From the NCBI GenBank assembly GCA_964602665.1, contig CAZRRH010000003.1, positions 2,963-66,962 of the forward strand: 64,000 nucleotides of DNA, given 5' to 3'. Source of the DNA: an uncultured Candidatus Saccharibacteria bacterium (GTDB taxonomy: Bacteria > Patescibacteriota > Dojkabacteria > SC72 > WJKH01). The position numbers and the translations under genes are program-made. The first letter of the stretch is position 1. Every line of letters starts with the position of its first letter. Under the pieces are notes generated by a model, which saw only the letters and a program-made list of their open reading frames with translations, had not been told where the DNA came from and searched no databases. Shown piece after piece: positions 3,697 through 26,589 of the stretch.

Positions 3697-6600
3697 ATGT
3701 CACAAATAAATCTAAATGCAAAGCAGGAAGAAGCGGTAAAACATAAAGTTGGCCCTTTGCTTATAATTGCTGGTGCAGGCACAGGTAAAACACAGACAAT
3801 AACTGATCGTATTAAATATATTATTTCACAGGAGTGGGCACAAACAAACGAGATATTAGCACTAACTTTTACTGATAAGGCCTCATATGAGATGCTTGAT
3901 CGAGTAGAAGAGAGCATCCCTTTTGGATATACTGATAATTGGATAAGTACATTCCACTCTTTTTGTGATAGGGTGATTAGAAGTGACGGACATTTGATCG
4001 GTCTGGACACGAATTACTCTCTGATGACATCTGCTCAGTCTTATATCCTTTTTCGTCGATATCTTTTTGACATGCCACTTGATACATTGCGTCCTTTGGG
4101 CAATCCTACAAGCTTCATACAGGACATATTAAAACACTTTTCTCGATTGCAAGATGAGGATATTACTCCTGATGATTACATAAATTTTGCCAAAAAGAAT
4201 CTAAAGACTGCAAAAGATGGAGAAGATATATACCCAGAGATTTTGGAGCTGGCAAACTGTTATAAAAAATTTTCTGAAATTAAAATTGCAGAATCAAAAT
4301 TTGATTTTGGAGATCTTATCACGATGACGCTCAAACTTATGCGCGAGAAACCTGCGGTATTAAAAAAATACCAGCAAAAATTTAAATATATACTGGTTGA
4401 CGAATTTCAGGACACAAATTATGCGCAAAATACACTCGTAAACTTATTGGCAATAAAAGACGGCGATACGAAAAATGCAAATATAACAGTAGTTGGGGAC
4501 GATGATCAGGCAATTTATAAATTTAGGGGTGCGGCGATATCAAACATCCTTCATTTTAAAAGCACATATAAGACAGCAAAAAGCATCGTTTTAACTGAAA
4601 ATTATCGATCTTATCAGCAAATTCTTGATTTGGCCTACAATGTAATTCAAAACAACAATCCCGATCGACTTGAAATTGCCGAAAATGTCATGAAAAGGCT
4701 TGTTTCACACTATATTTCCAGTAAGGATGATGGTCAGGAGAAGCCTTCTCTTTTTACTCCTGCCAAGGATTCTGGCGAACCCGTAAAAGTTGGTCAGTTT
4801 AAAAATCATCATGATGAAAGTGATTTTATAGTAAGCGAAATAAAGAAACTGCATAATTTGCAAGCATATGAATATAATGATATAGCAATAATTGTCAGGT
4901 CAAATAAAAATGCAGAAGAATTAACGAAGACCCTTACTTATAACGGGATTCCTTATAAATATCCGGGAACAAAAGGTCTTTATATGCGTAAGGAAATTAT
5001 GCCTTTTATCCTTTTTATGAGATTGCTTGCTGATTATACAGACAATGTAAGCGCTTTTGGATTGTTGCAGATGGAGCAATTTAATTTGTCACCGAGGGAT
5101 TTGACAGAGATCTCAAGGGCAAGCTCTTTTGATCGCGTTTCTATAATTGAATTTATCGAGAAAAATTTAGGTGCAAAAACAGGATCTAATGAAACTGATG
5201 GCAAGGAGCAGGTGGAGAATATTAGTAAAATGTTATTTGAGTCTGTTAAAACTAATAATTACATGCAAAGAATTCTGTCACAGAAAGGTCTTCTAGGCGT
5301 ATGTAATCTTGTTGCGCTAATGGACTATTCTATGACCATGGTTAAAACTGGTAAAAGTATTGGAGAGATACTTTTTATGTTTTTTAAAGGAAGTGGTTAC
5401 ATGGGCGATCTTGCTAATGTTGAGAGTCTTAGCGATATGCAGAAAAATAAAAGAATTTTTATAACAAATAATATTAGCAAATACTTTGACTCTGTACATA
5501 ATTATGAAAAAGAAGCCAAAAATAACTACATAAAAGATTACGTAGATTTTATTGATTACTCAATTGAGGTGGGAGATGGTCCTTCTGTTGATGCTGATTT
5601 TCTTGAAGATCAGGATGCTGTTACTATAACAACCGCACATAGTGCCAAGGGTCTTGAATATTATATTGTTTTCATACCACATCTTGTTACAGATAGATTT
5701 CCATCAAAAAGCAGAGTAGACAGATTGCCTGTTCCTGATCAACTTCTTAAAGAGACAAATCCAAATTATGAGGAAAATAAAACGCATTTGCAAGAAGAAC
5801 GAAGGCTGTTTTATGTTGCATTGACAAGAGCAAAAGAGAAGCTTTATCTGACTTGTGCTAGCAGATATGATGGGTTAAAAAGAGAAAAGAAGGCTAGTAA
5901 GTTTTTTGATGAAGCAAAAAAACATTTAGATAACAGACATGAGTTATTAATTACTGATAGAAAAGAGAATAAATTATTTGATGATGTTGAAATTGCATTA
6001 TGTAACACAGACGATGAACAAGATGTGCTTATGAATACTGTTAAATCAAGTAATAATTGCGGGTTTAATTCGAGCTATTCTGCTCTTACAGCGTATAATT
6101 GGTGTCCAAGGAAATATGCATATTCTTATCTCTATCGTATCCAGACTGCCCAAAGTGGTGCTTTGGCGTTTGGATCTACAATCCATGCGGTCTTAAAGGA
6201 GTTATACGACAGACTTATGCAGGCTAAGAGCGGGTTTGCAGGTATGGTCGAATACCCGACGCTTGATTTTGTTAAGGATACATATGAGAAAAAATGGATA
6301 AGAGTAGGTTACGACAGCAAAGAGCATGAAGCCAGGCGCAAGAAAAAAGGTCTTATGCTTATAACTAATTATTACAACAATGTTTATAATCCAGATGAGA
6401 AGCCTCTTTTTATTGAGATGGGTTTTAAATATAATATAAATGATATATCATTAAAAGGACAAATTGATAGGGTTGATTTGTTGGGCGTTGATAAAGATGG
6501 CAAGAAAATTGTAAGGATAATTGATTATAAGACGGGGACAGTAAAAAAAGACCAGACAGAGGAGGATTTACAGTTAAGCTTATATACGCTTTTTATGCAA

Positions 6601-6819
6601 CAACAAGGGTATATCGTCCAGCGGGCACAGTATTATTATATTGAGCATGAACAATTTGTTGATATAGAGCTTAATCAAGTTGAAAAATCCATTATAGAGG
6701 GCAAAATTAAAGCTATTGCAGACAAAATAAGAAGTGGTGACTTTAATGCAACACCAGGTATGTTTAAGTGTAAATATTGCGATTATAGGGCTATATGCCC
6801 AAACGCAGAGCTAAGTTGA
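3697..6819 (+). CDS. UvrD/PcrA-type superfamily-1 helicase fused to a C-terminal RecB-family (PD-(D/E)XK) nuclease domain with Fe-S cysteines (AddA/AdnB-like)
   Basis: 1040 aa. N-terminal UvrD Walker A (IIAGAGTGKTQT) and the later helicase motifs are present, including DEFQDTN and VGDDDQAIYKFRGA. The C-terminus has the RecB/Cas4-style IIDYKTG motif and a cysteine set (…NWCPRK… then CKYCDYRAICPN) of the kind that binds a 4Fe-4S cluster in AddB/Cas4-type nucleases. Confidence 0.8.
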   Translation: MSQINLNAKQEEAVKHKVGPLLIIAGAGTGKTQTITDRIKYIISQEWAQTNEILALTFTDKASYEMLDRVEESIPFGYTDNWISTFHSFCDRVIRSDGHLIGLDTNYSLMTSAQSYILFRRYLFDMPLDTLRPLGNPTSFIQDILKHFSRLQDEDITPDDYINFAKKNLKTAKDGEDIYPEILELANCYKKFSEIKIAESKFDFGDLITMTLKLMREKPAVLKKYQQKFKYILVDEFQDTNYAQNTLVNLLAIKDGDTKNANITVVGDDDQAIYKFRGAAISNILHFKSTYKTAKSIVLTENYRSYQQILDLAYNVIQNNNPDRLEIAENVMKRLVSHYISSKDDGQEKPSLFTPAKDSGEPVKVGQFKNHHDESDFIVSEIKKLHNLQAYEYNDIAIIVRSNKNAEELTKTLTYNGIPYKYPGTKGLYMRKEIMPFILFMRLLADYTDNVSAFGLLQMEQFNLSPRDLTEISRASSFDRVSIIEFIEKNLGAKTGSNETDGKEQVENISKMLFESVKTNNYMQRILSQKGLLGVCNLVALMDYSMTMVKTGKSIGEILFMFFKGSGYMGDLANVESLSDMQKNKRIFITNNISKYFDSVHNYEKEAKNNYIKDYVDFIDYSIEVGDGPSVDADFLEDQDAVTITTAHSAKGLEYYIVFIPHLVTDRFPSKSRVDRLPVPDQLLKETNPNYEENKTHLQEERRLFYVALTRAKEKLYLTCASRYDGLKREKKASKFFDEAKKHLDNRHELLITDRKENKLFDDVEIALCNTDDEQDVLMNTVKSSNNCGFNSSYSALTAYNWCPRKYAYSYLYRIQTAQSGALAFGSTIHAVLKELYDRLMQAKSGFAGMVEYPTLDFVKDTYEKKWIRVGYDSKEHEARRKKKGLMLITNYYNNVYNPDEKPLFIEMGFKYNINDISLKGQIDRVDLLGVDKDGKKIVRIIDYKTGTVKKDQTEEDLQLSLYTLFMQQQGYIVQRAQYYYIEHEQFVDIELNQVEKSIIEGKIKAIADKIRSGDFNATPGMFKCKYCDYRAICPNAELS

Positions 6820-6835
6820 TTAAGTGGTCTAATTT

Positions 6836-6844
6836 TGGTATAAT
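6836..6844 (+). promoter_or_regulatory. extended -10 element (TGGTATAAT) 6 nt upstream of the first pilin-like gene. A leaderless start is likely.
   Basis: TGGTATAAT at 6836..6844 with the ATG at 6851 and no Shine-Dalgarno room. The identical TGGTATAAT box recurs at 22479 and 39105. Confidence 0.45.
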
Positions 6845-6850
6845 AATGAG

Positions 6851-7276
6851 ATGCATAAGAAGATCGCTAAATATATTTTGACATTTTTTGCGTTGATAGC
6901 AATAACAAGTGCATATTTACCTACAAGAACTTATGCAGAGGATGGTATTGGTACTCAAATAGGGAATCAGTTACAAGATTTGCTTGACCCTGAGGATATT
7001 AACTCTGATCCGGGTAACGAAAACGAGGCTCCAGAAGCCCTTGTACAAATGGTGCAATCGATTGTCCAAATATCTCTGATGGTAGCGACCTTAGCTGTGA
7101 TAATTCTTTTTATAGTTGTGGCATATAATATGGTGACAAGCCAGGGTAATCCCGAGAAGCTTAATGAAGCAAAAGAGATCGCTGTTAATGCTATAATAGG
7201 TTTTATGATGATAGCAATGGCATCAACTATTTTATGGATTTTGGCTAATCTTGTCGGTATCGATAAATTATTTTAA
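6851..7276 (+). CDS. VirB2/TrbC-like pilin paralogue 1 (signal peptide plus two-helix hydrophobic hairpin)
   Basis: 141 aa. Cleavable signal peptide (…TRTYA|ED), acidic variable region, then TM-loop-TM (…IILFIVVAYNMVTSQGNPEKLNEAK…IGFMMIAMASTILWIL). Shares its architecture with the five genes that follow. Confidence 0.5.
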   Translation: MHKKIAKYILTFFALIAITSAYLPTRTYAEDGIGTQIGNQLQDLLDPEDINSDPGNENEAPEALVQMVQSIVQISLMVATLAVIILFIVVAYNMVTSQGNPEKLNEAKEIAVNAIIGFMMIAMASTILWILANLVGIDKLF

Positions 7277-7284
7277 AGTTAAAT

Positions 7285-7587
7285 ATGAAAAACATTATTG
7301 CGGCTAATTGGTTCGGAGTAACTGATTCTTTTGGAAAAGATATAACTACATTTGATGGCATAAAATTAGAAGCGCTTAACTTCGTGTCTGGTATCATAGG
7401 TTTTTTAGGAGTTGTTTTTGTATGCCTTTTTATTTACGGAGCAGTAACATGGATGACTGCTCAAGCAGATGCCGAGAAGGTAAAAAAAGCTCAGGGTATA
7501 ATAACAAGTGCATTTGCAGGTCTTTTGGTTATTATTTTAGCAAGAGTTATTATAGGCTTCGTTATAAGACTAGTCTTGCCAACTTGA
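7285..7587 (+). CDS. VirB2/TrbC-like pilin paralogue 2
   Basis: 100 aa. Core VVFVCLFIYGAVTWMTAQADAEKVKKAQGIITSAFAGLLVIIL aligns with the other paralogues. Confidence 0.5.
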   Translation: MKNIIAANWFGVTDSFGKDITTFDGIKLEALNFVSGIIGFLGVVFVCLFIYGAVTWMTAQADAEKVKKAQGIITSAFAGLLVIILARVIIGFVIRLVLPT

Positions 7588-7620
7588 AATTATATCTGAT
7601 TTATGATATAATACAAGGTT

Positions 7621-8025
7621 ATGAGATTACAGAAAATCGCTTTTAAACTAGATACTACTTTAGCGCTATTTCTCTTTTCTGCGCATAAAGCTTTTGCTCA
7701 AAATACCTCCACTACAGTCAAGAATATTGATACAAGTGGTGATATAAACAGCATAAAAAATAACATCAAATACATAAGAATTGCAGATAGAGAAGGTGAT
7801 CTCGTTGCAATGATTGTCTATTTACTTAATCAGGCGATTGCACTTATTGGAATTATTGCCGTTATTTTCTTGATTATTGGTGGATTCCAGTATATTACAG
7901 CGGGTGGTGATGATTCAAAAACAGAGAAAGCAAACAAAACGATCATTAATGCGTTGGTAGGTTTGGCTATTGTGCTTTTATCGGGAGTTGTGGTACAATT
8001 CCTTATAGACAGATTAATTTTTTAA
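7621..8025 (+). CDS. VirB2/TrbC-like pilin paralogue 3
   Basis: 134 aa. Signal peptide, then core IAVIFLIIGGFQYITAGGDDSKTEKANKTIINALVGLAIVLLSG. Extended -10 TGATATAAT at 7604..7612, 8 nt upstream. Confidence 0.55.
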   Translation: MRLQKIAFKLDTTLALFLFSAHKAFAQNTSTTVKNIDTSGDINSIKNNIKYIRIADREGDLVAMIVYLLNQAIALIGIIAVIFLIIGGFQYITAGGDDSKTEKANKTIINALVGLAIVLLSGVVVQFLIDRLIF

Positions 8026-8051
8026 ATTTTTAAATTTTTAATTATATTTAT

Positions 8052-8429
8052 ATGAGTAGATTTATTCGATTAGTAAGTACACTTGGATTAACAGGAATGC
8101 TTTTTAGTTATCTTCCTGCAAAGGCTATGGCAGCAGGAGATGTCGCTGATATTAAAGGGTGGATGGGTAGAATAAGCATATATAATGAGACTGCTAGTGG
8201 TAATCCAGAAGCCAAAATTGCTAACATTATAAACTATGTTGTTGGAGCATTAGGTTTGGTTGCTGTTTTGTTCTTAATCATAGGTGGTGTTCAGTATATG
8301 ACAGCAGGTGGCGATGACGGCAAAGTTGAGAGTGCAACAAAGACTATAAAAAATGCTTTGATTGGCCTTGCAGTTATAGTATTATCAGGATTAATTGTTA
8401 ACTTCGTATTTTCAATTCTTGCTAAATAA
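8052..8429 (+). CDS. VirB2/TrbC-like pilin paralogue 4
   Basis: 125 aa. Signal peptide (…AKAMA|AG). Core VAVLFLIIGGVQYMTAGGDDGKVESATKTIKNALIGLAVIVLSG. Confidence 0.55.
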   Translation: MSRFIRLVSTLGLTGMLFSYLPAKAMAAGDVADIKGWMGRISIYNETASGNPEAKIANIINYVVGALGLVAVLFLIIGGVQYMTAGGDDGKVESATKTIKNALIGLAVIVLSGLIVNFVFSILAK

Positions 8430-8878
8430 TGCGTAGAAGCGGATTAATTAAAAAAGTAACAATCTTGACTCTTCTGACATTTTTAGTCGGAGGAGTCATG
8501 CTTGGTTTTTTTCCCGCGAAGACCTATGCGGCTACTGATCCACTTGAACTTTTAAAAAGTATAAAGATAGGACAGGAGCCATTAGATAGCACAGAAGAAG
8601 TTGTTGATACATATGTTATTAATAATATCAATTATGTGATTGGCGCAACAGGTCTTGTTTGCGTTATTTTCTTGATAATTGGAGCTGTTAAATATATGAC
8701 TGCCGGTGGTGACGATCAGAAGGTTCAAGATGCTCAAAAGACAATTCAAAATGCACTCATTGGTCTTGCGCTTATTGTATTATCCGGTCTTATTATCAAT
8801 GTGGTATTTTCAATTCTTGATAACAAAAAAACTGCAAGAGCTAAACCGACACCGTCCCCTGTTCCAGTAGCTACTTGA
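8429..8878 (+). CDS. VirB2/TrbC-like pilin paralogue 5, with Pro/Thr-rich C-terminal tail
   Basis: 149 aa. Core VCVIFLIIGAVKYMTAGGDDQKVQDAQKTIQNALIGLALIVLSG, then the tail KKTARAKPTPSPVPVAT. Start overlaps the previous stop (ATAATG). Confidence 0.55.
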   Translation: MRRSGLIKKVTILTLLTFLVGGVMLGFFPAKTYAATDPLELLKSIKIGQEPLDSTEEVVDTYVINNINYVIGATGLVCVIFLIIGAVKYMTAGGDDQKVQDAQKTIQNALIGLALIVLSGLIINVVFSILDNKKTARAKPTPSPVPVAT

Positions 8879-8901
8879 TGATTTTTAATGGTTAATAAAT
8901 A

Positions 8902-9183
8902 ATGAAAAGCTTAATACTAAAAATACTTCTAATAGATCCTCCAAAAATAACGGACTTGTTTTCTTCTATAGACAGTTTAATTGCATTGATTTTTGATTTA
9001 TTAATAATCGTTTCGGTATTGATGACGGTATATGGCGGAGCAATGTGGATGTTATCAGCAGGGGATCCTCAGAAGATAAAACAGGCACAAGGTACAATCA
9101 CATGGGCTATATTCGGATTGATTTTCTCTTTGCTTATAAGGGTTGTTCTTTTCAATATATTTAACTGGGTTGTATCAGCGTGA
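8902..9183 (+). CDS. VirB2/TrbC-like pilin paralogue 6
   Basis: 93 aa. Core VSVLMTVYGGAMWMLSAGDPQKIKQAQGTITWAIFGLIFSLLI. The same TM-loop-TM hairpin. Confidence 0.5.
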   Translation: MKSLILKILLIDPPKITDLFSSIDSLIALIFDLLIIVSVLMTVYGGAMWMLSAGDPQKIKQAQGTITWAIFGLIFSLLIRVVLFNIFNWVVSA

Positions 9184-9204: not shown

Positions 9205-11013
9205 ATGAGAAAAAAGACTCCTCTTTATCTTGCAGTGTTTTTTCTGCTAATGTTTGGCAATATTGTATATGCTCAGACAGCAGCTGATCAGCATGAGCAA
9301 CTCATAAGAGAGCAAGAAGAGCTTAAGAAGGAGAAAGAAAAAATAGTCGCAGATACAAAATCTCAGATAGATCAGATACTTCTTGGCAAGGGTACTGTTG
9401 ATCAAAAAATCAGGCAAGTAAATTCAAAAATATCAGAGATAGATGGTACATTAAGCTCTACTAAATCACAGATTAATGAAAAAGAGGCAACTCTTGTGGG
9501 AAGGCAAAAAGAGCTTGATGAAAAAAGCGCTCAACTTTCCAAAGTATCAATTGATATGTATAAAGACCTCAGAGTAGGTTACTTAGAAATTTTATTATCA
9601 AGCAATGATTTTGAGAGAAGTATCAAGATGTTTAATTATCGCAAATTTATCCTGCAAGCACAGACAGAGGAATTTAACAGTATTTATGGCACTTATAGCT
9701 TAATTCTTGATCAAACAAAAGCCTTGCAAAGGGATAAAGAGCTTTTAGATACTCAAAAGAAAGCTTTTGAAGATGCAAAAATCGCATTGGAGGCTGAGAA
9801 AATAAGAATTCAGCAGGAAATAAATGAAAAAAACGCTTATGCGAGCAAACTAAATAGCGAAATAGCTGGCCTTAGTAAGTCAATCTCAAAATTACAGCAA
9901 GAGTTGATAATATTAAAATCAGGTGGAACATATGTTGATGTTAATACTATTCCGTCGGTATCAGTTGATAAAAACTCTACACTCGCGGGATTTTTAAACA
10001 ATGCTCCGTCAGGCTCTTTTGCGGTTTTTTCTTTTAGTGCTTACACTCATCGCAATGGTGTAAGCCAATATGGTGCAAAAGCTAGAGCTGCTGCTGGACA
10101 AAACCATCTGCAAATTCTAAAATTCTATTTTCCTAATGGCGCAATCAACACGACTTATCCTGTTATGGAGAAAATTAGAGTTGAAGGTTATGGTGAAATT
10201 GATTTTGAGACCACATATTTGTATGGAATATCAGAGATGCCTACAAGTTGGGATATGGAGGCATTAAAAACTCAGGCTATTATTGCAAGGACATATGCAA
10301 TTCGCCGTACTGCAAATGGCGCCGGCACAATTTGCACAACAGAGTCTTGTCAGGTTTATAGGCCGAGAGATCCAAATACCGTACCAAATTGGAAAAGAGC
10401 TGTTGATGAAACTCGTGGTATGGTTTTGCTTGATGGATCGGGCAATGTAATATCGACGCAGTATGCATCTTTGCATGGTGGATATGTCAATAATGTCGGT
10501 TGGGATACAACAGATGGGACAAATCAAGGTGATTGGCCTGGTAGATCTTGGGATGCCAAAGCTCCTCATCCATGGTTTTATAGATCATGGTATCGCAAAG
10601 GATACTCTGATAGTGGAGATACTTGTGGGCATCCTGCATGGCTTACTGAAGAAGAGATGGCTGATATTATTAATGCATATTTATTGCTAAAAGGGACTGA
10701 TCTTAAAGCGCCTGTTGATACAAGTAGAATTGCTGGTGTAAACACAGTAAGCTGTTGGGGCAAAAATGTTAGCCCTTATAGCATGCAGGAGATAAGGGAT
10801 TTGATAAACACTCCTGTAACGCAGATTTATGGCAAGCCAGTTGTTTCTCAAAGCAACAACGGAGTAACAACAACAGTGATTTTTAGTACAAATAGAGGGA
10901 GTATAACGATGAGCGGTTCTGACTTCAAAAATGCTTATAATCTCCGAGCGCCAGGCGCTATGAGAATCCCACAAAGTGGCTTTTCATTCTTTAATATCGA
11001 AAGGAAGATCTAA
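9205..11013 (+). CDS. secreted coiled-coil protein with C-terminal SpoIID/LytB peptidoglycan-remodelling domain
   Basis: 602 aa. Signal peptide, then ~230 aa rich in heptad-like K/E/Q/L (coiled coil). The C-terminal region carries the SpoIID/LytB signature …WDMEALKTQAIIARTYAIRR… and Gly/Trp-rich segments. Confidence 0.65.
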   Translation: MRKKTPLYLAVFFLLMFGNIVYAQTAADQHEQLIREQEELKKEKEKIVADTKSQIDQILLGKGTVDQKIRQVNSKISEIDGTLSSTKSQINEKEATLVGRQKELDEKSAQLSKVSIDMYKDLRVGYLEILLSSNDFERSIKMFNYRKFILQAQTEEFNSIYGTYSLILDQTKALQRDKELLDTQKKAFEDAKIALEAEKIRIQQEINEKNAYASKLNSEIAGLSKSISKLQQELIILKSGGTYVDVNTIPSVSVDKNSTLAGFLNNAPSGSFAVFSFSAYTHRNGVSQYGAKARAAAGQNHLQILKFYFPNGAINTTYPVMEKIRVEGYGEIDFETTYLYGISEMPTSWDMEALKTQAIIARTYAIRRTANGAGTICTTESCQVYRPRDPNTVPNWKRAVDETRGMVLLDGSGNVISTQYASLHGGYVNNVGWDTTDGTNQGDWPGRSWDAKAPHPWFYRSWYRKGYSDSGDTCGHPAWLTEEEMADIINAYLLLKGTDLKAPVDTSRIAGVNTVSCWGKNVSPYSMQEIRDLINTPVTQIYGKPVVSQSNNGVTTTVIFSTNRGSITMSGSDFKNAYNLRAPGAMRIPQSGFSFFNIERKI

Positions 11014-20830: not shown

Positions 20831-22474
20831 TTGCAACTATTGTCTATGCGTACCGAGATTATTAACATTCCGAAAAAAAAGAAAAAAATAAAAGTAATAA
20901 GTTATGGCTTATATGTGGTTTTATTTATAATAATAGGCACGGTTGCATCTTTAGTTGTCTATAATATACTTACTCGAGCTGCTAGTGAGGCAAATCCGCA
21001 AAATGTCGTTTTAAGTAATCCAACACCGACCTCAATTACAGTCTCTTGGATAACTGATGTTGGAGCTGATGTGTCTATAAAATATTGGGTATCAGGTCAA
21101 GTACAAGTAGGAGAAAAAGAAGCGATTGATGTACGAGAGAGTAAAAAGCGTGTAATACACTCAGTGGAAATAAATAACTTAGAACCTTCCACTGAATATA
21201 ATTTTAAAATAATCTCAAACGGCAAAGAGTACTCAGAAATAAATGGTAAAGCAATGTCGTTTAAAACGATAGATTTTAAAAGCGATTTTGCAACCCCTAA
21301 ACCTGTTTATGGGACTGTCAAGAATGTAACACATAATGATGCACTAATATTCTTAATCGCTAGTGGAGGTTGGCCTTTATCTGTACCAGTAGCTTCTGAT
21401 GGTAATTGGATTGCAGATTTATCTTCTGTTATTAAGATATCTGATAGCACTGTTTTAAAAGTCACTGACGATATTGCTATAAAAATAATATTAATCGACA
21501 AGGATGGAAAAGGTGCTATAAAAGAGGGAAAATACTCAGAACTTTTTGGCGGGGATGGTAAATTGCTATCTTCTGTTGAAATAAAATCTGATGTCTTAGG
21601 CTCTTACATCGATAAATTCCCACCTGAGGCTGTCGTTGCATCATCTTTTGCTCCGACGCCAACACCTACACCAACTCCGATTCCGACACCCACGCCGACG
21701 CCAACGCCTACACCCACGCCAACGCCTACACCCACGCCAACGCCAACACCTACACCTACACCAACTCCGACACCTTCTGGTAGAATATTTAGATATTTTA
21801 TTTCATCGAGTGTTGTGATTGATAAGCTAGAATCAACTAGAGCGCAAAGAAGTTCCGTCACCGATACCAGTATCAAGATAAGCAATCTGTCTGATACAGG
21901 ATTCTCTGTTATTTGGGCAAGTGCCTCAAAAGAGGAAGGGTATATTTCTTACGGAACTGATTCAAGTAATCTGTCGCAGAAAGTTTATGATACTCGTGAT
22001 ACCGTTTTGTTAAAAGGCAAATATTATTCCCATCAGGTTGATATAAGATCTCTTGATCCTGAGAAAAAATACTACTTTGAGGTTTATTCTGGCGAGGTAA
22101 AAATAAGCGGTTCTTCTCCAATGGATGTAACAACTTTTGCGACATTGGCTGCTGCTCCGCCATTTAAAACCATGTCGGGTAAAATTGAGAGCAATGGAAC
22201 TATTGTTGATGGTGTAGTTTATTTAAAAATTGTAAACAAGGACTCTGACGGCAGTAGTGGAGAATCTGTTCTTTTCTCTACTACAGTTGACAGTACAAAC
22301 AGCTGGATTGCAAGTATCGGCAATGTAAGAATGTCTGACGGATCAGATTATTTTGACTTAACAGATGGTGATGAAATACAAGCAGTATTTTTCTCAAATG
22401 TGCAATCTGATTCTGTAAAATTTGAAACAGATAATATTGATGAAGACATTTTCATCATTGAGGTGACGCAGTAA
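20831..22474 (+). CDS. membrane-anchored surface protein with two fibronectin type III-like domains separated by a (Pro-Thr)n linker
   Basis: 547 aa. Lys-rich N-terminus plus TM. Fn3-like segments (…[13 protein letters not shown]…EYNFKIIS…; …[21 protein letters not shown]…[10 protein letters not shown]…). The 42-residue PT(P/I)T repeat is encoded at 21653..21775. Confidence 0.5.
21653..21775 (+). repeat. in-frame tandem repeat (ccNacNcc)n encoding (PT)n linker
   Basis: A periodic ~12-nt and 6-nt repeat visible directly in the DNA. It translates to [18 protein letters not shown]…TPS. Confidence 0.8.
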
Positions 22475-22494: not shown

Positions 22495-24651
22495 ATGAAA
22501 AAATCTTTTCTGATAATTACAGTTTTGTTAATTACCGTTTCTTTATCATTTAATAATGCAATTGCAGCTGAGCTCCTCATAGCACCTAAAAGCAATGTAA
22601 AAAGCACCAGCAAAGTTTTGGGAACAAATACTGCTGGATGTTCGGTGAGCGGATGCTGTGGAGAGGAGTGCCCAATAAACGCTCCCGTTGGGTCAGAAAA
22701 GCCTCAATCTATTTGTACAGAATCTTCTCTTAGCATCACTCATGGTACAAGCGGCAGAACTTTATCTCAAATTCCTGTTGAGTTGGCTCCTCTTATGATA
22801 ACTTATCCTAATCAGATAGGTGCTGGATACGGTGTAAAAGTACAGGAAGACGGAAAAGAAGTTGTTTATGAAATTAAGTTTAAACTTAAAGAAGGTAGAA
22901 CAGGAGAATACTTGGATGATTACTCACTAATTATTGGTTACCCAAGCATGGGTGAAGCACATGATATTGTTAAATCGTGGGCAACACCTGGCGCTATTGA
23001 AGGCGAAAAAGAACTAGTGCTCGTACAGGAAGGACTTTGTAATTATGATCCAAATAATGTAACTGCAGATAATGGTCCTTATTGGACATCGTTAAAACTA
23101 GAAGTCGGCGGATTACAGGAGACAAAAAGGAGTAATCCGGGAGTGATAATATCTGATTTGTTGTACAACAGAGATTTCTCTACTGGGCAGTATAATGCAA
23201 ATCAATCTCAAAGATATGCTGCTATTGGCTTAAACAAAATACTTGAGCCTTATAAAGTAAAGGAAAAAGAGAGCAAAATTGCAGAGTATGAGAGCTTAAG
23301 AAGCTCAGATTGTATAGAGCAGCCTGATTTCTCAAGATATACTGTTGTAAATGACTCACAAGGGCGCAAGATATACTTGCCTTCATCTGATTATGTTGCA
23401 ACGGTAAGCTCTGGCGGTGTACAGCCTGATACTTATTTGGGCAAAAGAATATCAGGTCCTGTAGTAAGTGGTACATCCGAGATGAATTTGACTGCATCTC
23501 AAGTTAAAGATTGTGTTAATCCGGCAACTGGTAAACCTAAGGTATGTCCAACTAAAGATCACACAGTTATTTTAGATACAGGACAGGTTTATGGTCCTCA
23601 CGGAGTAGTTGAAGGATATAATGCATATGCATTTGATTATGAATGGATACTAAGCTTGTATGGACCACAAAAATTAGAAGAACTAAAAGCGTCTTCTGAT
23701 AGCTCATTAAGTAGTGTTGATAGGTTGTTAAAAAACTTCCTTGTAACAGGGTATTATGCACATACAGATTGTAAAACTATTGGTACAAATGGAATTGATA
23801 ATATTCAGTGTGTATACTCAGATCCAATGTATGTGTTAGCGTTTTTACTTAAAACGATGGCTTATAATACTCCTGATCAGAACTTAATAACAGTAAAAGA
23901 TGGTGCGGGCAATGATGTAAAGATAACAATAGATGATGCTTTTATGAGAACTGTTGAATCGCATTGGATTTCTCTTGGCACAAGTTGCTCAGGCAGAACT
24001 TATAGTCGCAAGGTAGAAGGAGAGAGTTATGTTCCGATAAATAATATGCCATCAAATCCAATCGATTTCACAAACTTAAAAGATGCTGCGGAAAAATTAA
24101 AAACCTTGCAGGAATACTGGAATATTGTCAGAGAAGATGTACGATCTAGATATGGAGATGAGGCTTATAAATCTATCCCTGAAGGGATTATCATGGTTGA
24201 AGATAGAAATACAGAAACCGGATACTATTGCTATGCCTCTAATCCTGTAGAGTGTGGAACAAACATAATGAACTCAAGTAAGTCAAAAATAATAGGTAAT
24301 CTACTACATGAAGCAATGCACTTTTGGCGAGCAAAGTTAAAAAGTCAAAATGATTATTGCAAAACACTAAAAAGCATTGAAAATAGCTGTTGGACTAAAA
24401 TAAGTGAGCTAAATGCAGAAAGACTTTCAAATAATGGAGGTTCATATAGTTTTAAGATTGGAGGCCAGTGGGTATGCTCACAGGGCGTTGTCTCTCATAT
24501 ATCCAGTAAGACAGGGCTTAGTTATGAAGAAGTCGGCAAATTTTTTGATGGAGATTGCTCTTATGAGAAAAAATATGTTTCTTCTGGCTTTAACTTCTGT
24601 CAAGAAATACAAGATATTCATTTGGGAGCAAGTCATTGCAATGGGTGGTAA
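22495..24651 (+). CDS. secreted cysteine-rich protein with C-terminal HExxH motif (putative zincin-like metallopeptidase)
   Basis: 718 aa. Signal peptide (…SFNNAIA|AE). About 25 Cys, several as CxxC or Cx3C. LLHEAMHFW lies near the C-terminus. No other family assignment is possible by eye. Confidence 0.45.
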   Translation: MKKSFLIITVLLITVSLSFNNAIAAELLIAPKSNVKSTSKVLGTNTAGCSVSGCCGEECPINAPVGSEKPQSICTESSLSITHGTSGRTLSQIPVELAPLMITYPNQIGAGYGVKVQEDGKEVVYEIKFKLKEGRTGEYLDDYSLIIGYPSMGEAHDIVKSWATPGAIEGEKELVLVQEGLCNYDPNNVTADNGPYWTSLKLEVGGLQETKRSNPGVIISDLLYNRDFSTGQYNANQSQRYAAIGLNKILEPYKVKEKESKIAEYESLRSSDCIEQPDFSRYTVVNDSQGRKIYLPSSDYVATVSSGGVQPDTYLGKRISGPVVSGTSEMNLTASQVKDCVNPATGKPKVCPTKDHTVILDTGQVYGPHGVVEGYNAYAFDYEWILSLYGPQKLEELKASSDSSLSSVDRLLKNFLVTGYYAHTDCKTIGTNGIDNIQCVYSDPMYVLAFLLKTMAYNTPDQNLITVKDGAGNDVKITIDDAFMRTVESHWISLGTSCSGRTYSRKVEGESYVPINNMPSNPIDFTNLKDAAEKLKTLQEYWNIVREDVRSRYGDEAYKSIPEGIIMVEDRNTETGYYCYASNPVECGTNIMNSSKSKIIGNLLHEAMHFWRAKLKSQNDYCKTLKSIENSCWTKISELNAERLSNNGGSYSFKIGGQWVCSQGVVSHISSKTGLSYEEVGKFFDGDCSYEKKYVSSGFNFCQEIQDIHLGASHCNGW

Positions 24652-24654
24652 AAA

Positions 24655-26589
24655 TTGTTAAAATACAAATTAATATTTATACATAAAAACAAGATGAAAA
24701 GAACTCAAAATATATTGGCGATAATGCTTACTGTAATAGTACTCTTCCAAATCGGCTTCGCTTACTCTCAGGAGGCAAAAATAGATGTTGTGAGCGGATA
24801 TAAAGAGCAAGGCAAAATTCTTGAGCATGTCACAGATAGTCCACTTCCTGATAGTTATAAAAGTGTTTCAAACACGCAATACGGGATGTTGAGTTCTTTA
24901 CTCGAAGGAATTGTCCCTCAGATTTATGAAGGCTACGAGGATATGATCAAAGATCCTGAGATTTCTTTAAATACTAAATTGGGTCTGTACGGCATGGTTC
25001 AGCTTGGTAACGAGTCTTTGCTTGGTGCTCAACCAAGTATTGATATTAAACAGCATTTGGCGATGCAATGGATTCCTGGATATGATGAATCAAAGTATAC
25101 TACATGGGCGCAGGACGAAACAGAAACATGGGTAAAATATTGTAATACAATAAGTGATAGTGATATGCTTGCAAGGAATAAATGTTTGTCTGATTGTGGT
25201 AAACTTACTAATGCTTTTGATAAAATTACCTGTGCAAGAGATGCTGCTGACGAATGGGAGAATCAGGAACTTGGTGAGGAGGTTGAAGAGACCGAGGAAA
25301 CTGTTGTAGAAGATGGTTTGTTAAACTGTTCTGCTTTAGAATATAATCCTTATAGGGATTATTGTTTAGAGCAGTGTACAAGTTTTGTTGAAGGTAAGGT
25401 TACTTCTTCTCATGAAGAAGACCAAAACTGTATAAAAGAGCTTATTGAAATCGAAAAAGCAGCTGATAAAACTGGGCTTGAAGATCTAAGAGACGAAACA
25501 GAGGCAGAAATGCTTGAAAGGTACGAAAGAAGTTTGGACATTGAAGTTGAGGATAAAAACAAGATAGCTGTCTCTGATGGGTGGGATTATCTTAACAAGT
25601 CAGGAGTGAGATCATTGTGGGGACGAATGCTGGCAATATCATACATCTTGTTCATAATAGTGATGATAATTGGTGGATTTATGGTGATGTTTAGAAATAA
25701 GATTGGGGGACAAGTTGCTGTGACGATATTTAATACAATTCCTAATGTCGTTATTGCTCTTTTGCTTGCGACATTTAGCTTTGCTATTGTAGGCTTAATA
25801 CTAAACGCTAGTGTTATCGCATCAAACATCATCAAAGGATTTATGGGTCTTGGAGATGATTTTCTTTATGTAAACAATCTTGTAAGTTTGGTCCAGGGGG
25901 GAGAAGCCACGGCAAGCCCAGAAGCAATGCTTGGTGATGCTTTTTATGCACTTTCATTTATACTTGATGGAGTTCTTGCCCTTTTAACAGGAGGGATCTC
26001 TCTTATAGGAACTGGTGTAATTGCCGTCGGTGGATGGATTATTGATGGAAAAGTTCATTCTATTGGATCTCTCTTAGTCATATTAATCTTTGTGATTGCA
26101 TTTGTTTTTATATCTATAAGGGTCTTTTTGACTCTTATGAAGGCTTTCCTAGGAATAATCGTCGACACTGTTTTTGGTCCTATTCTTATAACATTGTCAG
26201 CTATACCTGGACTAGATAAACTAAGGAAGCAGTGGTTTAACAGATTGATAAAAAACGCTTTGGTTTTTCCATTGGTATTGGCATTGATAAATCTTCCTGT
26301 TTATATAAGAAAAATCGCTGAAAACGGCGCACTATCGTTGGATATGGAGATTTTATCGGCGGGAGATTTTAGCAAGGGGGTTCTTGAAGGAAAGAGCTTC
26401 TTAGTGTCGATATTCTTTGGAGTCTTGCCGTTTATTTGTTACAATGCGGCTGCAAATGTACCTCTTCTACTTGAGGACTTCTTCCCAACTCAAGTTGGAC
26501 AAGGTATGGCTAAATTTATGGCTGGAGCATCTGCTCCTATGAGCAAAATACCTATAATTGGTAAAGCTTTTAAGCAGGAGGGTAAATAG
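24655..26589 (+). CDS. VirB6/TrbL-like polytopic membrane protein with Cys-rich N-terminal ectodomain (paralogue A)
   Basis: 644 aa. Signal peptide, a ~300-aa extracytoplasmic domain with Cx3C pairs, then 6 or more TM helices. Long identical stretches shared with paralogue B (e.g. FRNKIGGQVAVTI.NTIPN, LDKLRKQWFNRLIKNALVFP). Confidence 0.4.
   Translation: MLKYKLIFIHKNKMKRTQNILAIMLTVIVLFQIGFAYSQEAKIDVVSGYKEQGKILEHVTDSPLPDSYKSVSNTQYGMLSSLLEGIVPQIYEGYEDMIKDPEISLNTKLGLYGMVQLGNESLLGAQPSIDIKQHLAMQWIPGYDESKYTTWAQDETETWVKYCNTISDSDMLARNKCLSDCGKLTNAFDKITCARDAADEWENQELGEEVEETEETVVEDGLLNCSALEYNPYRDYCLEQCTSFVEGKVTSSHEEDQNCIKELIEIEKAADKTGLEDLRDETEAEMLERYERSLDIEVEDKNKIAVSDGWDYLNKSGVRSLWGRMLAISYILFIIVMIIGGFMVMFRNKIGGQVAVTIFNTIPNVVIALLLATFSFAIVGLILNASVIASNIIKGFMGLGDDFLYVNNLVSLVQGGEATASPEAMLGDAFYALSFILDGVLALLTGGISLIGTGVIAVGGWIIDGKVHSIGSLLVILIFVIAFVFISIRVFLTLMKAFLGIIVDTVFGPILITLSAIPGLDKLRKQWFNRLIKNALVFPLVLALINLPVYIRKIAENGALSLDMEILSAGDFSKGVLEGKSFLVSIFFGVLPFICYNAAANVPLLLEDFFPTQVGQGMAKFMAGASAPMSKIPIIGKAFKQEGK

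What the first reader, a model, noticed from the sequence alone, without database searches (positions are those of the whole stretch)
6851..9183. Six tandem pilin-like paralogues with a conserved TM-hairpin core and hypervariable exposed N-terminal region
All six products share signal peptide, variable region, TM1, a loop (TAGGDDxK, or the variants TAQADAEK / SAGDPQK / SQGNPEK), then TM2. The mature N-terminal segments differ completely in sequence and length. Paralogue 5 also carries a PT-rich tail. A tandem array of major-subunit-like genes suggests mixed or exchangeable pilus subunits, a surface-variation mechanism. Such a mechanism would matter for host or partner recognition. Contacts 4 and 5 are the most similar pair, consistent with recent duplication.
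Basis: seen in the sequence. Interest (0 to 1): 0.65.

Follow-up and report, generated by a model that had tools for sequence, protein, structure and literature searches.

The report
Patescibacterial VirB2-like pilin gene array
Six neighbouring small genes encode membrane-hairpin proteins of the type IV secretion pilin family, in a tandem array of a kind already described in the ultrasmall Patescibacteria. Here the copies are old, fixed-order, non-interchangeable subunit types, not a surface-variation system.

Summary
The six ORFs are real and lie exactly where stated. All six score above the Pfam gathering threshold for PF18895 (T4SS_pilin, VirB2-like). The genome is a Patescibacterium related to Candidatus Dojkabacteria (WS6). 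Tandem arrays of 2-11 such pilin genes are already published for Patescibacteria (McLean 2018; Wang 2023; Quinonero-Coronel 2025). That includes an essential six-gene array in Southlakia epibionticum. The kind is therefore known.

Two details in the finding are wrong. Only four of the six have a signal peptide; copies 2 and 6 have none. The proposed [quoted passage not shown] reading is not supported. Each copy has a same-position orthologue in five divergent relatives, giving four ancient classes in the order A-B-C(1-3 copies)-D. There are no gene-conversion tracts. Strains at 97.6-99.7% nucleotide identity keep every copy captured on their contigs intact, under purifying selection.

The array always sits between a UvrD/PD-(D/E)XK helicase and a SpoIID-like wall hydrolase. 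VirB4, PrgI and coupling-protein genes lie nearby in other Dojkabacteria but not in this 64-kb window.

Most likely it is a set of non-redundant subunits of one T4SS-associated pilus or conduit. Interest is modest.

The parts
6851..7276 (+). Pilin-family gene 1 (141 aa), class A. It has a signal peptide (cleavage predicted after TYA29), an acidic N-region, TM1, the loop TSQGNPEKLNEAKEI and TM2.
   Evidence: PF18895 33.7 bits against a cut-off of 26.6. Same-position orthologues in L007, L008, L012, L013 and L014 score 177-323 against <=100 for other positions. The class A clade has bootstrap 100.
7285..7587 (+). Pilin-family gene 2 (100 aa), class B. It has no signal peptide. It carries a conserved N-terminal (G/N)WFG(I/V) motif and the loop TAQADAEK.
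   Evidence: PF18895 27.0 bits, just above the cut-off. The position-2 gene is its best match in all five relatives. The WFG motif is seen in the alignment. A stop codon 8 nt upstream excludes a longer N-terminus.
7621..8025 (+). Pilin-family gene 3 (134 aa), class C. It has a signal peptide (AFA26) and the loop TAGGDDSK. It is the most conserved copy.
   Evidence: PF18895 38.0 bits and TrbC/VirB2 at E=0.0025, sub-threshold. Orthologues are 71% identical overall and 88-89% in the core. Clade bootstrap is 100.
8052..8429 (+). Pilin-family gene 4 (125 aa), class C. It has a signal peptide (AMA27) and the loop TAGGDDGK.
   Evidence: PF18895 51.8 bits, E=8.7e-14. An AlphaFold2 model of the core has pLDDT 90.5 and forms a helix-loop-helix hairpin. 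The identical protein occurs on 11 metagenome contigs.
8429..8878 (+). Pilin-family gene 5 (149 aa), class C. It has a signal peptide (TYA34), the loop TAGGDDQK and a hydrophilic Pro/Thr-rich C-terminal tail. Its start overlaps the stop of gene 4 by 1 nt.
   Evidence: PF18895 39.1 bits. Orthologues in L007 and L008 also carry hydrophilic C-terminal tails of unrelated sequence. Clade bootstrap is 95.
8902..9183 (+). Pilin-family gene 6 (93 aa), class D. It has no canonical signal peptide, a conserved PPK(I/F) N-terminal motif, and the loop MWMLSAGDPQKIKQAQGTITWA.
   Evidence: PF18895 32.2 bits. The last-position gene is its best match in all five relatives. The class D clade has bootstrap 91.5. 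Orthologues L012_4 and L013_5 keep a full signal peptide ending directly before the PPK/PPR motif.
9205..11013 (+). Neighbouring gene for a 602-aa secreted or anchored coiled-coil protein with a SpoIID/LytB domain. It is a candidate wall-opening partner of the array; this role is inferred.
   Evidence: PF08486 SpoIID, E=4e-19. It lies directly downstream of the array in the window, L007, L008, L012 (after two extra ORFs), L013, L014 and L017. A homologue about 30% identical lies divergently next to pilin genes in 13 of 19 more distant metagenome loci.
6816..6844 (+). Promoter-like site (TTGATT-17-TATAAT with an extended TG). It ends 6 nt before the ATG of gene 1.
   Evidence: 10 of 12 matches. 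The number of such sites in the region is not above the shuffled expectation, so this is only a lead.
7584..7612 (+). Promoter-like site (TTGAAA-17-TATAAT with an extended TG). It ends 8 nt before the ATG of gene 3.
   Evidence: (11 of 12, the best in the region), with the same caveat as above.

Best explanation
This is a chromosomal operon-like array of six VirB2-like pilin-family genes (Pfam PF18895). The genome is a Patescibacterium related to Candidatus Dojkabacteria. The array is the local version of the 'VirB2 pilin arrays' already described across Patescibacteria.

Each product is a roughly 75-residue transmembrane helical hairpin. The mechanism below is inferred.
- Copies 1, 3, 4 and 5 are inserted by Sec and trimmed by signal peptidase. 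Copies 2 and 6 insert without a cleavable leader.
- All lie with their N- and C-termini outside and the conserved G-D/N-x-x-K loop at the cytoplasmic face.
- A VirB4-type ATPase and VirB6/PrgI platform, encoded elsewhere in this genome, extracts them from the membrane and assembles them into a pilus or short conduit. This structure is thought to reach the host bacterium.

The six are not interchangeable variants. They belong to four ancient classes kept in fixed order: A, B, C (triplicated here) and D. The best reading is one heteromeric structure. Class C would be the bulk subunit, and A, B and D specialised subunits (base, adaptor or tip). The adjacent SpoIID-like lytic enzyme would open the cell wall for it.
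For: Family assignment:
- All six pass the PF18895 gathering score.
- The core folds as a confident two-helix hairpin, pLDDT 90.5.
- 23 of 118 relatives also hit TrbC/VirB2.

Link to type IV secretion:
- In Dojkabacteria locus L012 the array is flanked by VirB4-like, TraC-like and PrgI genes upstream and a TrwB/TraG-like ATPase downstream.
- L013 has the coupling-protein-like gene downstream.

Fixed classes:
- Same-position best hits are found in five relatives, with class-specific motifs.
- NJ bootstraps are 100 for class A, 91.5 for class D and 66.5 for class C.
- Class-HMM typing of L017 gives A-B-C-C-C-D.

All copies functional:
- Every copy captured on six strain-level contigs is intact, with pN/pS 0-0.27.

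Co-assembly:
- The database holds single polypeptides with 2-16 fused hairpin units behind one signal peptide, for example P0262 with six. This is a Rosetta-stone argument that separate hairpins sit side by side.

SpoIID link.

Literature:
- Arrays of 2-11 VirB2-like genes occur in 383 Patescibacteria assemblies (PMC12102498).
- Pilin subunits encoded within the T4SS cluster are essential in Southlakia epibionticum (PMC10633639). A later review counts six (PMC12857230).
Against: - No VirB4, VirB6, PrgI or coupling-protein gene was detected in the 64-kb window, nor in the flanks of its closest relatives L007 and L008. A cognate machine in this genome is therefore assumed, not shown.
- No pilus of this family has ever been observed.
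- Fold search could not separate the hairpin from generic hairpins such as CnrX and ATP synthase subunit c. No solved conjugative pilin appeared in the top 50. A profile search of PDB sequences found nothing.
- Class B is not monophyletic on the core alignment (bootstrap 1.5).
- The roles assigned to the classes are pure inference.
- Covalently fused multi-hairpin relatives fit a membrane-embedded bundle as well as a filament.
Confidence: 0.6

Rival explanations
1. Exchangeable major pilins. The copies are alternative versions of one subunit, swapped or mixed to vary the exposed surface for host range or evasion. It is also suggested by analogy with Bartonella and Anaplasma in PMC12102498.
For: Paralogues differ strongly in the predicted exposed N-region and in tail length. 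The N-region evolves faster than the core: 25-67% against 52-89% identity among orthologues. Class C copy number varies from 1 to 3, and L007 has a seventh copy elsewhere. Copies 1 and 5 show the most non-synonymous strain differences, with pN/pS up to 0.27.
Against: One-to-one positional orthology holds over deep divergence. There are no conversion tracts; the best DNA match between copies is 71% over 204 nt. There are no silent or truncated cassettes. Every copy captured on the strain-level contigs is kept, and selection is purifying throughout. Two classes lack the signal peptide altogether, which points to different biogenesis and not just a different surface.
Confidence: 0.12
2. Membrane-embedded oligomer, not a filament. 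The hairpins assemble into a ring or bundle in the cytoplasmic membrane. This could be a channel or a platform tied to the SpoIID-like wall enzyme and cell-envelope remodelling. It would work with or without a T4SS.
For: There are no T4SS ATPase genes near the array in this lineage. The most constant neighbour is a wall hydrolase, not VirB4. Relatives exist as 2-16 covalently fused hairpins, that is polytopic membrane proteins. The best structural analogues include ATP synthase subunit c.
Against: The family is sequence-related to TrbC/VirB2. In the literature, pilin genes lie near virB4 in 1135 of 1948 assemblies. They also do so in L012 and L013. Both termini of conjugative pilins are adjacent on the pilus surface (established knowledge of F and T pili), so fused units do not exclude a filament.
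Confidence: 0.22
3. Unrelated small membrane proteins, such as holins, bacteriocin immunity proteins or toxin-like peptides, that merely resemble pilins.
For: A two-helix hairpin is a very common shape. There are noise-level hits to the lambda holin and Colicin V production families.
Against: All six are above threshold for PF18895 only. Holin hits have E=0.06-0.4, far below their cut-offs. No lysis, bacteriocin or phage genes lie nearby; the neighbours are housekeeping genes. The array is conserved across a whole bacterial class.
Confidence: 0.03

Closest known systems
VirB2-like pilin arrays of Patescibacteria. Examples are the six-gene essential array in the T4SS cluster SEML1_0006-0019 of Ca. 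Southlakia epibionticum ML1 and the 'Sec-secreted array' of Nanosynbacter lyticus TM7x. Sources: PMC10633639, PMC12102498, PMC12857230, bioRxiv 10.1101/258137.
   Same: Same Pfam family (PF18895). Both are tandem arrays of small two-TM proteins in a monoderm, ultrasmall bacterium. Within-array identity is low: 22-58% here against a published mean of 25% and maximum of 54%. Six copies, as in Southlakia. The location is chromosomal, with no relaxase.
   Different: The lineage here is Dojkabacteria-related, which is not discussed in those papers. The array is not inside a recognisable T4SS gene cluster. It sits between a UvrD/PD-(D/E)XK helicase and a SpoIID-like gene among housekeeping genes. 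Two of the six lack signal peptides, whereas the TM7x array was described as all having them. Whether the A-B-C-D class order also holds in Saccharimonadia was not tested.
Canonical conjugative pilins VirB2/TrbC/TraA (Pfam PF04956; T-pilus, F-pilus)
   Same: A leader peptide followed by two hydrophobic helices joined by a short charged loop. There is weak profile similarity: 18.4 and 16.4 bits for copies 3 and 4, and 23 of 118 relatives at E<=0.01.
   Different: The hits are below the PF04956 gathering score. Those systems use one major pilin gene, not four classes. They are diderm machines with VirB7/9/10, which are absent here. No filament, lipid co-assembly or cyclisation has been shown for this family.
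Amplified virB2 paralogues of Bartonella and Anaplasma, and Neisseria pilE/pilS-type variation
   Same: Several pilin genes in tandem.
   Different: Those are recent, similar copies or silent cassettes that diversify by recombination. Here the copies are ancient, each has orthologues, there are no conversion tracts, and selection is purifying.
Mbov_0395 / MMCAP2_0565 pilin-like conjugal transfer proteins of Mycoplasma ICEs (NCBIfam NF045849)
   Same: Best NCBIfam match for all six (20-38 bits). These are also small two-TM proteins of monoderm T4SSs.
   Different: All scores are below the 40-bit cut-off. Those proteins are single-copy genes on mobile elements.

Membership tests
Pfam PF18895 T4SS_pilin (patescibacterial VirB2-like pilin) | Sequence score at or above the curated gathering threshold (26.6 bits) | tested here: met
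   Scores are 33.7, 27.0, 38.0, 51.8, 39.1 and 32.2 bits for copies 1-6. All 118 collected relatives also match.
Pfam PF18895 T4SS_pilin (patescibacterial VirB2-like pilin) | Two hydrophobic helices joined by a short polar loop, usually behind a Sec signal peptide | tested here: met
   The hairpin is modelled with pLDDT 90.5 and the segment layout is shown. A signal peptide is present in 4 of 6 and absent in copies 2 and 6.
Pfam PF18895 T4SS_pilin (patescibacterial VirB2-like pilin) | Genomic association with T4SS machinery (VirB4, VirB6, PrgI/VirB3) | tested here: inconclusive
   None was found in the 64-kb window or in the flanks of L007 and L008. Such genes are present next to the orthologous array in L012 and L013. 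The rest of this genome could not be reached.
Pfam PF18895 T4SS_pilin (patescibacterial VirB2-like pilin) | Polymerises into an extracellular pilus | not testable with these tools
   According to the papers read, no filament of this family has been observed in any organism.
Patescibacterial 'VirB2 array' (Quinonero-Coronel et al. 2025) | Two to eleven pilin genes in tandem, or separated by one gene, with low mutual identity | tested here: met
   Six adjacent genes with pairwise local identity of 22-58%. The published values are a mean of 25% and a maximum of 54%.
Canonical TrbC/VirB2 pilin (Pfam PF04956) | Score at or above the gathering threshold (27.9 bits) | tested here: not met
   The best scores are 18.4 bits (copy 3) and 16.4 bits (copy 4). 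This indicates remote similarity only.
Canonical TrbC/VirB2 pilin (Pfam PF04956) | Structural match to solved conjugative pilins | tested here: inconclusive
Pilin antigenic or phase-variation systems (pilE/pilS-like; amplified virB2 of Bartonella and Anaplasma) | Recent, highly similar copies or silent cassettes, recombination tracts, strain-to-strain hypervariability | tested here: not met
   The best DNA match between copies is 71% over 204 nt. Each copy has same-position orthologues. Strain-level pN/pS is 0-0.27, and every copy captured on the strain contigs is intact.
Holins / bacteriocin immunity proteins | Significant match to a holin or immunity family, with lysis or bacteriocin gene context | tested here: not met
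   Only noise-level hits: Phage_holin_3_1 at E=0.42, TIGR01594 at E=0.059 and Colicin_V at E=0.042. The neighbours are housekeeping genes.

The most novel reading that the evidence does not exclude
The arrays of Patescibacteria may not be collections of variant major pilins. They may instead be a conserved kit of four non-redundant hairpin classes (A, B, C, D) in fixed gene order. These would co-assemble in defined positions into one heteromeric pilus or conduit. The SpoIID-like lytic enzyme, which stays adjacent even after rearrangement, would stand in for the missing VirB1 wall-opening factor. The fused 2-16-unit 'polypilin' proteins would be the covalent form of the same assembly.
Probability: 0.35. 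Interest if true: 0.55.

Novelty: new member of a known kind. Interest (0 to 1): 0.33.

Why it matters
The patescibacterial T4SS and its pilin array are essential for epibiotic growth in the one species tested, and their function is unknown (PMC10633639, PMC11665869). This locus adds no new kind of system.

Its comparison does sharpen the open question. If the copies are fixed, non-redundant classes and not variants, then the structure to look for is a heteromeric assembly with defined subunit positions. In that case host-range 'versatility' is not the reason for the multiplicity. The constant SpoIID-like neighbour is a testable candidate for the missing cell-wall-opening factor.

Tried and rejected
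1. Two scans of GTDB genome contigs with the SpoIID-like neighbour, once full-length and once with the C-terminal domain, found nothing. Organism names therefore came only from annotated homologues at about 40% identity.
2. Cluster look-ups gave no organism names.
3. Walking off the window ends to search for VirB4 failed. One end gave only short contigs and the other had no record.
4. A profile search of PDB sequences gave 0 hits.
It was redone with class A only.
7. Gene conversion between copies was rejected.
8. The large unknown ORFs at 22.5-34 kb were considered as hidden T4SS parts. They have no Pfam or NCBIfam T4SS hit and no homologue in the T4SS-bearing flanks of L012-L014.
9. Holin and immunity identity was rejected.
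Full report
**What is there.** The window carries six co-oriented ORFs at 6851-7276, 7285-7587, 7621-8025, 8052-8429, 8429-8878 and 8902-9183. Spacers run from -1 to 33 nt. No terminator-like site above chance lies between them.

Their alignment shows a shared core of two hydrophobic helices joined by a short polar loop with an invariant Lys. An HMM built from the family hits exactly these six ORFs in the 64-kb window and nothing else. Minus-strand ORFs in the interval are 55 aa or shorter and unsupported.

**Corrections to the observation.**
- Copies 1, 3, 4 and 5 have canonical signal peptides ending TYA, AFA, AMA and TYA.
- Copy 2 starts MKNIIAANWFGV with no hydrophobic leader.
- Copy 6 has only MKSLILKILLID before a conserved PPKI motif.
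- In-frame stop codons just upstream exclude longer N-termini for copies 2 and 6.
- The PT-rich tail of copy 5 is real. Copies 4 and 5 being the closest pair is also right: 58% over 106 aa, and 71% DNA identity over 204 nt.

**Family.**
- All six exceed the Pfam gathering score of PF18895 (T4SS_pilin): 33.7, 27.0, 38.0, 51.8, 39.1 and 32.2 bits against 26.6.
- Secondary, sub-threshold hits go to TrbC/VirB2 and CagC and to the Mycoplasma ICE pilin-like family NF045849.
- Of 118 collected relatives, all match PF18895 and 23 also match TrbC/VirB2 at E<=0.01, with a best value of 1.9e-6.
- Holin and Colicin V hits are noise.
- A profile of the family finds 104,348 cluster representatives at E<=0.001 among 1.84 billion proteins. 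This is a very large family.

**Structure.**
- AlphaFold2 models copy 4 as a signal-peptide helix, a poorly defined N-region and a confident hairpin.
- The core alone reaches pLDDT 90.5, with helices at model residues 4-35 and 41-76.
- Foldseek against PDB gives no significant match, only generic hairpins such as CnrX, ATP synthase subunit c and CHMP4B.
- A profile search of PDB sequences finds nothing.
- The fold is too simple to discriminate. The VirB2 link rests on sequence profiles and gene context.

**Organism and context.** The window is chromosomal, at about 35% G+C, with nearly all large ORFs on one strand. It contains genes for EF-G and EF-Tu, RelA/SpoT, RecG and CTP synthase. Named relatives of the neighbouring SpoIID-like protein are Candidatus Dojkabacteria / candidate division WS6, at about 40% identity. 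No VirB4, VirB6, PrgI or coupling-protein domain was found in any large ORF of the window.

**Comparative genomics.**
- The identical copy-4 protein occurs on 11 metagenome contigs. The six examined are 97.6-99.7% identical to the window in DNA. The two contigs that span the whole array (L001, L002) carry all six genes intact; the four shorter ones end inside the array.
- Between strains, pN/pS is 0-0.27 for the pilin genes and 0.02-0.25 for the housekeeping neighbours. Copy 4 is biased by how the contigs were retrieved.
- Two divergent relatives keep AP endonuclease, UvrD/PD-(D/E)XK helicase, six PF18895 genes, SpoIID-like and RelA in the same order. These are L007 and L008, whose SpoIID-like proteins are 63% and 73-74% identical.
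- Three further Dojkabacteria-type loci keep the helicase, 4-5 PF18895 genes and the SpoIID-like gene. These are L012, L013 and L014, with SpoIID-like identity of 41-48%.
- In L012, VirB4-like, TraC-like and PrgI genes lie directly upstream, and a DUF87/TrwB/TraG-like ATPase lies 5 kb downstream.
- L013 has the same ATPase downstream.

**Orthology.** Every window copy scores best against the gene at the same position in L007 and L008. For example, copy 1 scores 323 and 314 against 100 or less for other positions. Copy 6 scores 296 and 276 against 100 or less. Across all six genomes four classes emerge, each with its own motifs.

| Class | Position | Defining features | Copies |
|---|---|---|---|
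| A | first | loop TSQGNPEKLNEAKEI | one |
| B | second | no signal peptide; N-terminal WFG motif | one |
| C | middle | loop QYITAGGDDxKxEKAxKTI | 1-3 (here copies 3, 4 and 5) |
| D | last | PPK(I/F) start; MWMLSAGDPQKIKQAQGTITWA | one |

- NJ bootstraps on 87 core columns are 100 for class A, 91.5 for class D and 66.5 for class C. The copy-3 group has 100 and the copy-5 group 95. Class B is not monophyletic on the core alone.
- The triplication of class C predates the split of the window, L007 and L008 lineages (bootstrap 70.5).
- Among orthologues the mature N-region is 25-67% identical and the core 52-89%. The N-region evolves faster, but it is not hypervariable.
- There are no gene-conversion tracts.

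**Wider link to SpoIID.** A metagenome scan with the class A alignment returned 27 loci. L017 types as A-B-C-C-C-D between the helicase and the SpoIID-like gene. In 13 of the 19 loci of 3 kb or more, a class-A-like pilin gene is followed by one further pilin gene (in L026 the contig ends after the first). These lie divergently next to a SpoIID-like gene. In several of these loci a homologue of the 207-aa ORF of L012 follows the SpoIID-like gene; in the three loci examined in detail it is followed by a protein of about 600 aa, and by SmpB in two of them. These loci come from a more distant lineage, with 44-49% G+C in the three examined and SpoIID-like identity of about 30%. The adjacency therefore survives a change of orientation. 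The loci may not be phylogenetically independent.

**Fusions.** The top profile hits are single polypeptides with 2-16 hairpin units. P0262 has one signal peptide and six hairpins joined by linkers of about 25 residues. P0273 has three hairpins, and P0153 and P0294 have two each. By Rosetta-stone logic, this suggests that separate hairpins of an array sit side by side in one assembly.

**Literature.**
- McLean et al. (bioRxiv 10.1101/258137) described arrays of 4-6 small signal-peptide proteins related to VirB2 in Saccharibacteria.
- Wang et al. 2023 (PMC10633639) found essential pilin subunits within the T4SS cluster of Southlakia epibionticum.
- Quinonero-Coronel et al. 2025 (PMC12102498) counted 441 arrays of 2-11 genes in 383 assemblies. 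Mean identity was 25% and the maximum 54%. Pilin genes lay near virB4 in 1135 of 1948 assemblies. The authors suggested host-adaptive versatility.
- A 2025 review (PMC12857230) speaks of six structurally conserved, sequence-divergent VirB2-like pilins in Southlakia.
- Term searches of the 2025 genomics paper found no mention of Dojkabacteria, SpoIID, positional orthology or pilin-pilin fusions.

**Conclusion.** The kind is already known. The surface-variation and recent-duplication interpretation is contradicted by positional orthology, purifying selection and the absence of conversion.

The most likely mechanism is co-assembly of non-redundant subunit classes into one T4SS-associated pilus or conduit, helped by the neighbouring wall hydrolase. 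The gene content, orthology and context are shown here. The topology, the assembly, the partner machine in this genome and the role of each class are inferred.

Noticed in passing
Proteins P0262, P0273, P0153, P0294, P0304 and P0315 (database hits, not in the window): Single polypeptides carry 2-16 tandem PF18895-like hairpin units behind one signal peptide. For example, P0262 is 552 aa with six units joined by linkers of about 25 aa and no internal leaders. The papers read do not mention them.
   Followed up: partly
window 24655-26589 and 26590-28152: Two adjacent paralogous proteins of 644 and 520 aa are 48.5% identical over 373 aa. Each has a Cys-containing extracytoplasmic N-half and a multi-TM C-half. 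They have no Pfam or NCBIfam match and no homologue in the T4SS-bearing flanks of L012-L014.
   Followed up: partly
window 22495-24651, 28161-31559, 31495-32658, 32727-33929: A run of large envelope proteins with no or minimal annotation: a 718-aa Cys-rich secreted protein, a 1132-aa protein with TM segments and a weak C-terminal M23 peptidase domain, a 387-aa TM protein, and a 400-aa protein ending in an SH3_3 domain. Together with the two multi-TM paralogues they form an uncharacterised surface gene cluster.
   Followed up: partly
window 20831-22474: A 547-aa protein has two purple-acid-phosphatase-N/fn3-like domains separated by a long (PT)n linker of about 60 residues.
   Followed up: no
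window 6816-6844 and 7584-7612: The two best sigma-70-like sites of the region (extended TG, -10 TATAAT) end only 6 and 8 nt before the ATG of pilin genes 1 and 3. This hints at leaderless or near-leaderless transcripts and an internal promoter. The site count is not above the shuffled expectation.
   Followed up: no
window 7285-7330 and 8902-8950; L012:8282-8599, L013:9654-9962: Class B pilins in all six genomes lack a signal peptide and share an N-terminal (G/N/S/C)W(F/Y/M)G motif. Class D keeps a PPK/PPR motif that follows a full signal peptide in L012 and L013. In the window lineage it follows only a 12-residue stub, so the leader appears to have been lost.
   Followed up: partly
L007:13326-13649: This relative has a seventh pilin gene, detached from the array and lying after RelA/SpoT. 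It is closest to copy 4 (60% identity) and lacks a signal peptide.
   Followed up: partly
L012:10001-19459, L013:10001-19081, L028:983-6642, L033:282-6650: A neighbourhood recurs in two arrangements, with the pilins on the same strand or divergent. It runs pilin genes, SpoIID-like, a protein of about 207 aa, (DUF5657), an unknown protein of 600-885 aa, then SmpB. In L012 and L013 a DUF8128/DUF87 TraG-like ATPase follows.
   Followed up: partly
window 3697-6819 and 34195-36150: The window has two UvrD-family helicases. The one directly upstream of the array is fused to a PD-(D/E)XK/Cas4-like nuclease (AddA-like). It is the constant upstream neighbour of the pilin array across Dojkabacteria.
   Followed up: partly
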